A DNA stretch of 24,928 nucleotides from a virus. The first letter of the stretch is position 1; every line of letters starts with the position of its first letter. The stretch lies in IMG/VR virus record IMGVR_UViG_3300038472_000103; one strand, 5' to 3'. The position numbers and the translations under genes are program-made. Shown here in pieces: positions 7,184-7,516 of this stretch. The notes below the pieces were generated by a model. That model did not search any database and was not told the origin of the DNA. It saw nothing but the letters and a program-made list of their open reading frames with translations.

Positions 7184-7212
7184 AAAAAGTAAAAGCCCAC
7201 TTTTCAGTGGGC
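7184..7212 (-). terminator. intrinsic terminator (minus strand)
   Basis: Hairpin GCCCACT-GAAA-AGTGGGC followed on the minus strand by TTTTACTTTTT. Confidence 0.65.
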
Positions 7213-7371
7213 CTGCTAATCTCGTTTTGGATTCGGATTAAACTACATCCGTTGAATCCACGAGAAACAGACCCGCAGCACCAAACCAGCGATTATTATG
7301 CTTCCGCTGGCGTTCGCCCTGCTTAGAGGCGACATTCGTATTGGATTTTCTAAAGGTCATTCTCGTATTCC

Positions 7372-7516
7372 TTGAACTTCTTTTAAATGCGGGTTCTCCC
7401 CATACATAAAGATTCTCAGGCTACGCTTGAATTTAATACTTCTACGTTAACGCCTGATGGCTCGTTCCGAGCCAACTACTCTTTATATAATACTGATAGT
7501 TGGAAAATTTGTCAAG
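7372..7516 (-). repeat. ~145-bp direct repeat, copy A: minus-strand sigma70 promoter + palindrome + leader
   Basis: Near-identical to 18027-18172. Minus strand reads TTGACA (plus 7510-7515), a 17-nt spacer, then TATTAT (plus 7487-7492). Confidence 0.85.
7487..7515 (-). promoter_or_regulatory. consensus-like sigma70 promoter (minus strand) driving the tRNA-Trp/His array
   Basis: -35 TTGACA, 17-bp spacer, -10 TATTAT. The perfect palindrome GGCTCGTTCCGAGCC (7459-7473) lies at about +7 to +21. Confidence 0.7.

What the first reader, a model, noticed from the sequence alone, without database searches (positions are those of the whole stretch)
7184..7516. Repeat-encoded promoters fire straight into terminators, predicting short non-coding RNAs
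A transcript from promoter B (start about 18128) reaches the terminator at about 17945 after roughly 175-185 nt. It does so without crossing any conserved ORF. The only ORFs are 7 aa in B and 16 aa in A, in different frames because of an indel. The copy-A transcript is about 290 nt and ends at the 7184-7212 terminator, just before tRNA-Trp.

A perfect palindrome GGCTCG-TTC-CGAGCC sits at about +7 to +21 of copy A (7459-7473). In copy B it is GGCTCGTTCCGAACC. It could be an operator overlapping the transcription start. Alternatively the RNAs may be leader or processing substrates for the downstream tRNAs by terminator read-through.
Basis: inference. Interest (0 to 1): 0.5.

Follow-up and report, generated by a model that had tools for sequence, protein, structure and literature searches.

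The report
Leader-peptide attenuators gating phage tRNA genes
The repeated promoter does fire into terminators, but the RNA in between encodes short "test" peptides whose codons match the tRNA genes just downstream, which suggests the phage switches its own tRNA genes on when those tRNAs run short.

Summary
The sequence features are real. A 147-151 nt direct repeat (7372-7522 and 18027-18178, minus strand, 96% identical) carries a near-consensus sigma-70 promoter and about 110 nt of hairpin-rich leader. Each copy is followed by an unrelated strong intrinsic terminator that abuts a tRNA gene.

The claim that no conserved ORF is crossed is wrong. Copy A's transcript contains a 40-codon ORF (7360-7238) with ten consecutive codons read by the tRNAs encoded downstream: Trp, His, Arg, Asn, Gln, Lys and Phe.

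Two more copies of the cassette exist in the same metagenomes. One precedes a Met/Pro-rich 22-codon ORF, a terminator and tRNA-Pro genes. The other drives a permuted tmRNA.

Distant relatives, one of them a 463-kb phage, lack the hairpins. They keep promoter, leader ORF, terminator and tRNA array. Their Ser leader, MNRISSLSSSSSS, uses all six Ser codons plus UUA and sits in front of four tRNA-Ser genes and tRNA-Leu(UAA).

Ribosome-masked folding shows position-dependent antiterminators, comparable to the E. coli trp leader run as a control. Copy B's leader ORF is degenerate.

Best reading: these are ribosome-mediated attenuators that sense tRNA supply and gate tRNA arrays. I found no precedent. 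No expression data exist, and the role of the hairpin module is unknown.

The parts
7487..7515 (-). Promoter P_A: TTGACA, 17-nt spacer, TATTAT. Identical 29-mer in copy B.
7372..7522 (-). Repeat copy A: promoter plus about 110 nt of transcribed hairpin leader (HP1-HP3).
7458..7474 (-). HP1: UGGCUCG-GAA-CGAGCCA, the palindrome in the finding. It is the only leader element shared by all four cassette loci.
7416..7457 (-). HP2, a predicted hairpin shared by cassette copies A, B and C.
7374..7415 (-). HP3, a predicted hairpin. Its 3' half is homologous to the start of the Ser leader ORF of relatives.
7357..7407 (-). 16-codon upstream ORF. Its stop overlaps the start of the leader ORF (AUGA). It is not codon-matched to the downstream tRNAs (my reading of the codons, not a computed test) and is not conserved.
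7238..7360 (-). Leader-peptide ORF, 40 codons: MTFRKSNTNVASKQGERQRKHNNRWFGAAGLFLVDSTDVV. It has an AAGGA Shine-Dalgarno and is conserved in three relatives.
7283..7324 (-). Regulatory codon run, codons 13-26. Twelve of the 14 codons, including ten consecutive (CGC CAG CGG AAG CAT AAT AAT CGC TGG TTT), are read by tRNAs encoded downstream.
7268..7276 (-). 5' strand of the predicted antiterminator (GCGGGUCUG, codons 29-31). It pairs with the terminator's 5' arm by extending the long hairpin.
7220..7265 (-). Long hairpin with the leader ORF's stop codon in its loop. It forms the core of the antiterminator.
7184..7214 (-). Intrinsic terminator A: 9-bp stem, GAAA loop, UUUUACUUUUU. It ends at the first base of tRNA-Trp.
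4752..7183 (-). Gated tRNA array: Trp, His, two small HTH genes, Arg x4, Asn, Gln, Asn, one odd tRNA, Lys-CUU, Phe. No strong sigma-70-like promoter lies inside it.
18143..18171 (-). Promoter P_B.
18027..18178 (-). Repeat copy B. It begins right after the stop of the 100-aa ORF at 18180.
18114..18130 (-). HP1 of copy B. A C-to-U change gives a G.U pair.
17962..18063 (-). Degenerate Ser leader. A 7-codon ORF (18063-18040) ends at UAA. The same frame continues with AGU UCA ACU AGU AGC UCC (18033-18016) and stops in the terminator loop. It is homologous to the intact MNRISSLSSSSSS ORFs of relatives.
17945..17974 (-). Intrinsic terminator B: 7-bp stem with 6 GC pairs, then UUUUUUAUUUU. It lies 2 nt before tRNA-Ser(GCU).
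16118..17942 (-). Gated array: tRNA-Ser GCU, a 149-aa ORF, tRNA-Ser GGA/CGA/UGA, further ORFs (106 and 91 aa), then tRNA-Leu UAA.

Best explanation
The region is the control region of a phage tRNA operon. It is not a stand-alone small-RNA gene.

Proposed mechanism for unit A:
- A strong host-type promoter (P_A) starts a transcript of about 295 nt.
- After a phage-specific hairpin 5' module (HP1-HP3), the transcript encodes a 40-codon leader peptide. The first two thirds of that peptide contain at least one codon for every tRNA species encoded downstream: Trp, His, four Arg isoacceptors plus Arg-UCU, Asn, Gln-CUG, Lys-CUU, Lys-UUU and Phe.
- Immediately after these codons lies the 5' strand of an antiterminator. 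It pairs with the 5' arm of a strong intrinsic terminator that abuts tRNA-Trp.
- If ribosomes read the test codons quickly, they run onto the antiterminator strand. The terminator then forms, and only the short leader RNA is made.
- If any of those tRNAs is scarce, the ribosome stalls upstream. The antiterminator persists, RNA polymerase reads into the tRNA array, and RNase P releases the tRNAs. Scarcity could come from a host pool that is too low, has been degraded, or has been cleaved by anticodon nucleases.
- The net effect is negative feedback on tRNA supply.

Related units:
- The same design precedes tRNA-Pro genes at cassette copy D, and Ser/Leu and Trp arrays in distant relatives.
- Copy B in this window is a decayed version. 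Its leader ORF start is lost, so it is probably locked into read-through or plain partial termination.
- The 150-nt repeat itself is a duplicated promoter plus 5'-UTR hairpin module. It was placed in front of four stable-RNA units (A, B, D and a permuted tmRNA).

Shown by computation: the promoters, terminators, ORFs, codon matching, conservation and alternative pairings.

Inferred: transcription start sites, translation of the ORFs, the direction of regulation and the function of the hairpins.
For: **1. Codon matching**
- In a 3x3 test, each cargo region was scored against each array's cognate codon set. The score was the best 10-codon window in any frame, compared with 5000 dinucleotide shuffles.
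- The matched pairs gave P=0.001 (A), 0.0018 (B) and at most 0.0002 (D). All six mismatched pairs gave P=0.27-0.96.
- In unit A, 12 of 12 downstream anticodons have a cognate codon in the leader. In L047 the figure is 11 of 11, in L048 8 of 8, and in the Ser units 5 of 5.
- The Ser leaders use all six Ser codons plus UUA, in front of tRNA-Ser GCU/CGA/GGA/UGA and tRNA-Leu-UAA.
- The Trp-type leaders use 3-4 different Arg codons.

**2. Unbiased scan**
- Every 8-60-codon ORF within 320 nt upstream of a tRNA was scored. The leader ORF ranked first in every locus that holds one: window P~4e-6, L044 and L045 ~1e-8, L046 1.5e-3, and D in L012 1.6e-3.
- In two loci the top score was weak: L048 0.02 and L047 0.1.
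- T5's tRNA region gave nothing significant: best P 0.008 among 74 candidates.

**3. Conservation**
- The architecture promoter, leader ORF, terminator, tRNA array is kept in relatives whose SprT is only 37-39% and RlaP 59-62% identical. One relative is a 463-kb contig.

**4. Structure**
- Ribosome-masked folding of D gives terminator probability 0.00-0.20 with the A site on codons 1-11, and 0.84-0.95 on codons 12-21.
- In transcripts truncated before the terminator's 3' arm, the 5' arm is sequestered while the ribosome sits on the regulatory codons and freed once it moves on. Values: L048 1.0 to 0.4; L047 0.7 to 0.2; L044 0.62 to 0.13; L045 0.17 without a ribosome, 0.5-0.6 stalled, 0.17 past; A about 0.7-0.9 to 0.5-0.6.
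- The E. coli trp leader run through the same scripts behaves the same way. It is terminator-dominated at equilibrium and shows sequestration only when the ribosome is at the Trp codons.

**5. Context**
- Terminators are rare in the window (20 found against 18.4 expected), yet the two cleanest ones on the coding strand follow the two repeat copies.
- No promoter can fit between terminator and tRNA, and no strong promoter lies inside the arrays.
Against: - There are no expression data. Start sites, translation and termination efficiency are all predicted.
- For unit A the antiterminator is only marginally competitive at equilibrium (terminator probability 0.42-0.99 in all states). The kinetic contrast is also modest.
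- Unit B has no canonical start for its Ser codons, has an in-frame UAA, and shows no equilibrium antiterminator.
- In most units the untranslated leader is predicted to antiterminate. This differs from the trp leader.
- The A-type peptide is conserved at the amino-acid level beyond the test codons (for example WFGxGLF). This could mean a functional small protein, although the region also encodes the antiterminator strand.
- A basic peptide rich in R, K, N, Q and H matched to Arg/Lys/Asn/Gln/His tRNAs is less improbable than the nominal P suggests.
- The Met tRNAs matched in D lie 2.5-4.4 kb downstream and may not belong to the same unit.
- The conserved hairpins HP1-HP3 have no assigned role and no compensatory covariation.
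Confidence: 0.68

Rival explanations
1. Stand-alone small RNA genes. The promoter-to-terminator units make about 190-nt and 295-nt regulatory RNAs that act in trans. The tRNAs downstream are unrelated neighbours.
For: - Each unit has its own promoter and a strong terminator.
- The RNAs fold better than shuffles: z = -4.9 (A) and -3.1 (B).
- At cassette copy C the same promoter-leader drives a bona fide ncRNA, a permuted tmRNA ending at a terminator.
- Attenuator-derived RNAs can act in trans elsewhere, for example rnTrpL of Sinorhizobium (PMC7968998).
Against: - The part shared by the two copies (HP1-HP3) is absent from relatives that keep the units.
- What is conserved is the ORF with tRNA-matched codons.
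- No Rfam family matches above threshold.
- There is no compensatory covariation.
- There is no room for a separate tRNA promoter after the terminators.
Confidence: 0.1
2. Ordinary small protein genes. The 22-40-aa peptides have a function of their own, for example basic RNA-binding or membrane peptides. The terminators simply end these genes and leak into the tRNAs.
For: - The A-type peptide is conserved at 44-60% identity, including non-test positions such as MT.RK.N and WFG.GL.
- Leader peptides with trans functions are known, for example peTrpL (PMC7298713).
Against: - Three unrelated peptides (R/K/N/Q/H/W-rich, Ser-rich, Pro/Met-rich) each match the tRNAs behind them, and none matches another array's tRNAs.
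- The Ser leaders use every Ser codon once or more, plus the single Leu codon read by the array's tRNA-Leu. This is hard to explain by peptide function.
- The C-terminal parts vary in length and sequence.
- Gene callers do not call the A ORF.
Confidence: 0.1
3. Processive antitermination. The conserved hairpins just downstream of the repeated promoter act like put RNA or nut/boxB, or the conserved promoter spacer acts as a Q-type site. Polymerase then becomes terminator-resistant, as at lambda PR'-tR'.
For: - The same promoter-proximal RNA module precedes non-homologous terminators at A, B, C and D.
- HP1 is the one element kept in all four copies.
- The promoter spacer is unusually conserved even in distant relatives.
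Against: - Relatives keep the terminators and arrays without HP1-HP3.
- At C the terminator is simply the 3' end of the tmRNA gene.
- No N- or Q-like protein was identified. This was not searched in depth.
- The idea does not explain the codon matching.
Confidence: 0.06
4. DNA operator. The palindrome GGCTCG-TTC-CGAGCC is bound by one of the small HTH proteins (6524-6899), which represses the repeated promoters.
For: - The inverted repeat is perfect in copies A and D.
- Two paralogous HTH genes sit inside the A array.
Against: - The distance from the -10 varies: 11, 16 and 25 nt.
- In copies B and C one half-site is changed in a way that keeps only RNA pairing (G.U).
- The palindrome is absent from relatives that keep small ORFs at the same place in the array.
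Confidence: 0.05

Closest known systems
Ribosome-mediated (leader-peptide) transcription attenuators of amino-acid operons and pheST (E. coli trp, his, leu, thr, ilv, pheST)
   Same: - Promoter, short leader ORF with a run of regulatory codons, G-rich segment forming an antiterminator with the terminator's 5' arm, then an intrinsic terminator before the regulated genes.
- Multivalent sensing as in ilv and thr.
- Same behaviour as the trp leader in the masking model.
   Different: - The regulated genes are tRNA genes, not enzymes or synthetases.
- The test codons cover each isoacceptor of the array, using all synonymous codons, instead of repeating one codon.
- Most units lack a 1:2 structure, so an untranslated leader is predicted to read through.
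- The system is phage-encoded.
Salmonella mgtCBR leader ORF mgtP (Pro-codon attenuator; PMC3641672)
   Same: A short leader ORF with Pro codons links the speed of translating those codons to the choice of leader stem-loop structures and to transcription of the downstream coding region. It resembles unit D (PMPMFPPSP).
   Different: It controls a virulence/Mg2+ operon in a bacterium, not tRNA-Pro genes.
T-box riboswitches
   Same: Leader RNAs that sense tRNA status and switch between an antiterminator and a terminator.
   Different: T-boxes bind uncharged tRNA directly, use no translation, and control synthetase and amino-acid genes. There is no T-box match here.
Lambda PR'-tR' (6S RNA) / Q antitermination
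   Same: A constitutive strong promoter fires into a nearby terminator and makes a short RNA. Downstream genes depend on read-through.
   Different: Q is a protein acting at the promoter. Here a translated, codon-matched ORF lies between the promoter and the terminator.
PeSL promoter/stem-loop cassettes of T4-type phages (PMC2839356, PMC4122927)
   Same: - A short repeated module containing an early sigma-70 promoter and a stem-loop occurs at several loci.
- The module borders segments that are swapped between related genomes. The cassette-to-other-promoter swap at the tmRNA locus shows this here.
   Different: - By my recollection, PeSLs place the stem-loop (a terminator) upstream of the promoter and flank novel ORFs.
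- Here the hairpins are transcribed 5'-UTR elements in front of stable-RNA units.
Attenuator-derived sRNA rnTrpL and peptide peTrpL of Sinorhizobium (PMC7968998, PMC7298713)
   Same: The terminated leader RNA, and the leader peptide, are discrete products that could have functions of their own.
   Different: No evidence for trans functions here.
T5 tRNA region with stable RNAs of unknown function (AY543070 annotation)
   Same: A phage tRNA region interspersed with promoters, small ORFs, HNH genes and unexplained small RNAs.
   Different: No codon-matched leader ORFs were found in T5 with the same scan.

Membership tests
Leader-peptide transcription attenuator | Short translatable ORF in the leader between the promoter and the regulated genes | tested here: met
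   - Unit A: 40 codons at 7360-7238 with AAGGA 8 nt upstream.
- Unit D: 22 codons.
- Relatives: 22-40 codons.
- Not met for window copy B, where the start is lost and a UAA lies in frame.
Leader-peptide transcription attenuator | Run of regulatory codons specific for the regulated pathway | tested here: met
   - Matched pairs gave P=0.001, 0.0018 and <=0.0002. Mismatched pairs gave P=0.27-0.96.
- Coverage of downstream anticodons was 12/12, 11/11, 8/8, 5/5, 5/5 and 3/3; L046 covered 9 of 11.
- The leader ORF was the top hit of an unbiased scan in every locus that holds one, though weakly in L048 (P 0.02) and L047 (P 0.1).
Leader-peptide transcription attenuator | Intrinsic terminator between the leader ORF and the regulated genes | tested here: met
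   - Window: 7214-7184 and 17974-17945.
- L044: 11050-11069.
- Relatives, read directly from sequence.
Leader-peptide transcription attenuator | Antiterminator mutually exclusive with the terminator, with the choice set by ribosome position | tested here: inconclusive
   - Clear for D at equilibrium.
- Seen only in the truncated-transcript model for A, L044-L048 and B.
- The trp control likewise shows it only in that model.
- These are predictions, and no compensatory covariation was analysed.
Leader-peptide transcription attenuator | Read-through responds to charged-tRNA availability in vivo or in vitro | not testable with these tools
   Needs reporters or coupled transcription-translation.
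Rfam Trp_leader (RF00513) | Score at or above the gathering threshold (41 bits) | tested here: not met
   The score was 26.2 bits at 7187-7289(-). The alignment rests mostly on the terminator and on GGUUUGGUG.
Stand-alone bacterial/phage sRNA gene | Non-coding transcript whose sequence or structure is conserved in relatives | tested here: not met
   HP1-HP3 are missing in four relatives. The conserved part is an ORF.
Processive antitermination site (put / nut) | Promoter-proximal RNA element required for read-through of downstream terminators, conserved along with them | tested here: not met
   Relatives keep the terminators and arrays without the element. The requirement itself is not testable here.
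PeSL-like mobile promoter cassette | Repeated promoter plus stem-loop module at the borders of segments exchanged between related genomes | tested here: inconclusive
   - Four loci share the module.
- One relative carries a different promoter and 5' hairpin at the tmRNA locus, with mosaic boundaries at the -35 and inside the tmRNA.
- Only one such exchange was seen.

The most novel reading that the evidence does not exclude
A clade of very large peat-soil phages, with contigs up to 463 kb, gates each of its tRNA gene arrays with a leader peptide. That peptide 'test-translates' at least one codon for every tRNA species in the array. Transcription runs into the tRNA genes only when one of those tRNAs is limiting. 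This would be the first case of ribosome-mediated attenuation controlling tRNA genes. It would act as a self-contained supply-and-demand circuit, and possibly as an alarm for tRNA-cleaving host defences.
Probability: 0.55. Interest if true: 0.88.

Novelty: new variant of a known kind. Interest (0 to 1): 0.8.

Why it matters
Why phages carry tRNA genes has been debated for decades. Proposed reasons include codon compensation, replacing a degraded host pool, and escaping anticodon nucleases (PMC10264068, PMC11464382, PMC11555353). How these genes are regulated is also poorly understood.

A leader peptide with one codon per downstream isoacceptor would show that the phage measures decoding capacity codon by codon and makes its tRNAs on demand. 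That favours the 'supply and rescue' views.

It would also give a directly testable cis element, and a simple sequence signature for finding such circuits in other genomes: a short ORF enriched in codons cognate to the tRNAs behind a terminator.

Finally, it extends classical attenuation, so far tied to amino-acid biosynthesis and synthetase genes, to the tRNAs themselves.

Tried and rejected
- **Rfam.** At gathering thresholds the window gave only tRNAs. Permissive scans of both units gave only sub-threshold, terminator-driven hits to Trp_leader, Phe_leader and Hfq sRNAs.
- **GenBank phages.** BLAST of the A region, near and distant modes, found nothing.
- **Strain variation.** All metagenome strains are 100% identical in A and B, so no covariation is available from them.
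- **Exact-pattern scans.**
  - IMG/VR held only copies C and D; a 40-mer from HP2 found nothing there.
  - The metagenome scan held only copies A, B (one partial copy), C and D.
  - The looser HP1 and -10 patterns gave chance hits: AT-rich marine phages, a TnpB C-terminus and high-GC contigs.
- **Physical linkage.** I could not show that A/B, C and D lie on one genome.
  - They form three separate contig groups with different maximum contig lengths.
  - Co-occurrence in samples, equal GC and complementary tRNA sets make one genome of more than 350 kb plausible.
- **Ideas considered and dropped.**
  - tRNA promoters hidden in the terminators. No hexamers fit (read).
  - rrn-type boxA in the leader. 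The resemblance is weak and lies in a variable A-run.
  - RNase III site at HP1. A 7-bp stem is too short.
  - Frameshift or stop read-through to rescue copy B's Ser frame. I found no support and left it open.
  - The odd tRNA at 5169-5239 as an ochre suppressor. Its loop, AUUAAC(G), does not fit.
- **Literature.** Seven of my nine searches looked for a precedent and found none for leader-peptide attenuation of tRNA genes. Subscription-only papers are not covered.
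Full report
**Context**

The window is part of a large phage genome assembled many times from peat-bog metagenomes.
- Contigs reach 153-178 kb for this region.
- All genes lie on the minus strand.
- ARAGORN tRNA genes.
- Neighbours include an RlaP-type nucleotidyltransferase, HNH endonucleases, SprT, PTH2 and an ABC ATPase.

**Observation**

The two copies of the repeat align from 2-8 nt upstream of the -35 to about +115 of the predicted transcript, then diverge completely.
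- Each copy holds TTGACA, a 17-nt spacer and TATTAT. The 29-mer occurs twice against 0 expected.
- Downstream lie unrelated GC-rich hairpins with U-runs, at 7214-7184 and 17974-17945. These directly abut tRNA-Trp and tRNA-Ser(GCU).
- The conserved transcribed part is predicted to form three hairpins.
- Both full transcripts fold better than shuffles, z = -4.9 and -3.1.

**More copies**

Exact-pattern scans of IMG/VR and JGI metagenomes found only four kinds of locus with this cassette.
- **A and B** are the two window copies.
- **C** has the cassette followed at once by a permuted tmRNA (Rfam RF04321, 74 bits) and a terminator.
- **D** has the promoter and HP1 only, then a small ORF, a terminator-like hairpin and two tRNA-Pro genes. 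Two tRNA-Met genes lie further on.

A, C and D occur in the same samples, B was recovered there only as one partial copy, and all four loci have the same GC and non-overlapping tRNA sets. They sit on three contig groups, so one genome is plausible but unproven.

A 90%-identical relative of the C region carries the tmRNA behind a different promoter and a different 5' hairpin. The mosaic junctions fall at the -35 and inside the tmRNA. The cassette therefore behaves as a swappable promoter/5'-UTR module.

**The key result: codon matching**

The non-repeated 'cargo' between cassette and terminator is matched, codon by codon, to the tRNA genes behind the terminator.
- **D** encodes MTKMRPMPMFPPSPMGRGVAGL. 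Its codons CCG x2 and CCA x2 precede tRNA-Pro(CGG) and tRNA-Pro(UGG). Its ATG x5 match tRNA-Met.
- **A** encodes MTFRKSNTNVASKQGERQRKHNNRWFGAAG... Its codons include AGA, AAA, AAT, AAG, CAG, CGC, CGG, CAT, TGG and TTT. These match the downstream Trp-CCA, His-GTG, Arg-CCG/GCG/ACG/TCG/TCT, Asn-GTT, Gln-CTG, Lys-CTT/TTT and Phe-GAA. All 12 anticodons are covered.
- **B** contains AGU UCA ACU AGU AGC UCC ahead of four tRNA-Ser genes.
- In a 3x3 shuffle test the three matched pairs gave P=0.001, 0.0018 and <=0.0002. The six mismatched pairs gave P=0.27-0.96.

**Relatives**

Syntenic loci from distant relatives were retrieved. Their SprT is 37-39% and RlaP 59-62% identical.

Ser units:
- L044, L045 and the 463-kb contig L050 each have a sigma-70-like promoter homologous to the cassette promoter.
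- Each has a nearly leaderless ORF starting MNRISSLSSSSSS. Its codons are TCC TCA TTA TCG TCN TCT AGT AGC TCN, which is every Ser codon plus Leu UUA.
- Each then has a strong terminator, followed by tRNA-Ser GCU, CGA, GGA, UGA and tRNA-Leu(UAA).

Trp units:
- L046, L047 and L048 have homologues of the A peptide: MTSRKANAIVSRKHQGDVRQRNNRWFGAGLF... and similar.
- These lie between a promoter and a terminator, in front of Trp, His, Arg x4-5, Asn, Gln and Lys arrays.
- They use 3-4 different Arg codons.

None of the relatives has HP1-HP3. The alignment shows these as an insertion of about 120 nt in the window phage.

Window copy B aligns with the intact Ser units from 'GAACC(C)GCAT' onward. It has lost the start codon, gained a base, and had 17 nt replaced. 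Two things follow.
- B's leader ORF is degenerate.
- The 3' end of the repeated cassette appears to derive from the old Ser-leader start. This suggests the cassette arose at B and was copied to A, C and D (inference).

An unbiased scan of all short ORFs upstream of tRNAs ranked these leader ORFs first in each locus, although the top scores in L048 (P 0.02) and L047 (P 0.1) were weak. It found nothing comparable in phage T5's tRNA region.

**Mechanism**

I modelled a ribosome as a 28-nt single-stranded mask stepped along each ORF.
- For D, the terminator is predicted to be replaced by an antiterminator when the A site is on codons 1-11, the Met/Pro run. In that state the G-rich codons 16-19 pair with the terminator's 5' arm. 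The terminator forms at codons 12-21: probability 0.00-0.20 against 0.84-0.95.
- For the other units the terminator wins at equilibrium in every state. The same is true of the E. coli trp leader run as a control (that sequence was recalled from memory).
- In the kinetically relevant transcript, truncated before the terminator's 3' arm, the 5' arm is sequestered while the ribosome is on or before the test codons. It is released when the ribosome moves into the distal ORF.
  - L048: 1.0 to 0.4.
  - L047: 0.7 to 0.2.
  - L044: 0.62 to 0.13.
  - L045: 0.17 unloaded, 0.5-0.6 stalled, 0.17 past.
  - A: about 0.7-0.9 to about 0.5-0.6.
- The trp control shows its known maximum at the Trp codons in this model.

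The common layout is: test codons; a G-rich antiterminator strand inside the ORF; a hairpin holding the stop codon; the terminator 5' arm; the rest of the terminator; the first tRNA.

The inferred logic is as follows.
- Fast decoding leads to termination.
- Slow decoding of any test codon leads to read-through into the tRNA genes.
- This amounts to negative feedback on tRNA supply.

Unlike trp, most units lack a 1:2 pairing, so an untranslated leader should read through.

**What remains open**

- The function of HP1-HP3.
  - Only one-sided substitutions were seen, two keeping pairs as G.U and one breaking a pair.
  - Candidate roles are 5' stabilisation, pausing, or a binding site.
- The status of copy B.
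- Whether the peptides or the terminated RNAs act in trans.
- Whether the strikingly conserved promoter spacer is a regulator's site.
- All expression-level claims.

**Comparison and novelty**

The system works like classical leader-peptide attenuation and meets its sequence-level criteria. The regulated genes, however, are tRNAs, and the test codons enumerate isoacceptors. Seven literature searches for a precedent found none. I therefore class it as a new variant of a known kind, found in a clade of very large environmental phages.

Noticed in passing
L013 1967-2180 (also L029 ~12360-12575): A phage-encoded permuted (two-piece) tmRNA: Rfam RF04321, 74.4 bits, tag ending ...ATAPKAFAAAA*. It is driven by the same cassette. 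Just after its terminator lies a CyVA-1 RNA hit (RF02965, 43.3 bits against a 41.4-bit threshold; L013 2266-2346).
   Followed up: partly
L028 2460-3000 vs L029 12180-12800: A 90%-identity relative has the tmRNA locus with a different promoter, a different 5' hairpin (CCUGUC-GCAA-GACAGG) and a different acceptor piece. The flanks are nearly identical, so this is a clean mosaic replacement.
   Followed up: partly
L020 2359-2433 (-): A tRNA with anticodon CUA (amber suppressor; ARAGORN labels it 'Pyl') lies near cassette locus C. This may hint at stop-codon suppression or recoding in this phage.
   Followed up: no
L007 1184-2152: In a relative with 79%-identical SprT, a TnpB (Cas12f1-like_TNB) gene sits where the window has the 100-aa ORF and cassette B.
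   Followed up: no
window 5169-5239 (-): An odd tRNA (Rfam 44.5 bits) with anticodon loop AUUAAC(G). ARAGORN reports a two-base anticodon 'ta'. The acceptor stem looked poorly paired by eye.
   Followed up: partly
window ~2700-2950 (-): A tRNA 3' half (T arm plus acceptor end) at 2703-2735 is not called as a tRNA. The motif GAGGATACCAGGTTTT occurs twice, about 230 nt apart. This could be a split, intron-containing or decayed tRNA.
   Followed up: no
window 7972-8031: A perfect 15-bp tandem repeat (CATGTTCTCCCACGC, four copies), covered by overlapping ORFs on both strands; in one minus-strand frame it reads GEHGV repeats.
   Followed up: no
window 6524-6899 (-): Two paralogous small HTH genes (62 and 65 aa; 71% identical over 72 nt of DNA) lie inside the gated array between tRNA-His and tRNA-Arg. 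Relatives have small ORFs at the same place. They are candidate regulators of the conserved promoter.
   Followed up: partly
window 7487-7515 / 18143-18171; L044 10912-10941; L045 ~11509-11537; L046, L048 and L050 upstream of the leaders: The promoter spacer, not just the hexamers, is conserved across relatives whose proteins are only 37-62% identical (GGACAATTTTGCCGC...CAGTAT). This suggests a regulator site or a special promoter class.
   Followed up: partly
L012 8340-8607: Another promoter of the same family (TTGACAATTTTTTAATTATAGGTATTAT) is followed by an RNA of about 190 nt. That RNA is closed by GUGGAACCCU/AGGGUUCCCAC plus a U-run, and lies upstream of a tRNA-Met. It has no Met-rich ORF and may be a further ncRNA.
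   Followed up: no
window 7521-7548 (-): A second promoter-like site (TTTACA, 16-nt spacer, TATGAT; 10 of 12) lies immediately upstream of P_A. It is absent at copy B.
   Followed up: no
L050 (IMGVR_UViG_3300033405_000001): The relative carrying an intact Ser attenuator is a 463-kb contig. Protein hits also come from contigs of 440-465 kb. The clade is therefore 'megaphage'-sized.
   Followed up: partly
L046 16523-16990; L047 15124-15657: Relatives encode a truncated His-tRNA-synthetase-like protein (Pfam tRNA-synt_His) between tRNA-Trp and tRNA-His, inside the gated array.
   Followed up: no
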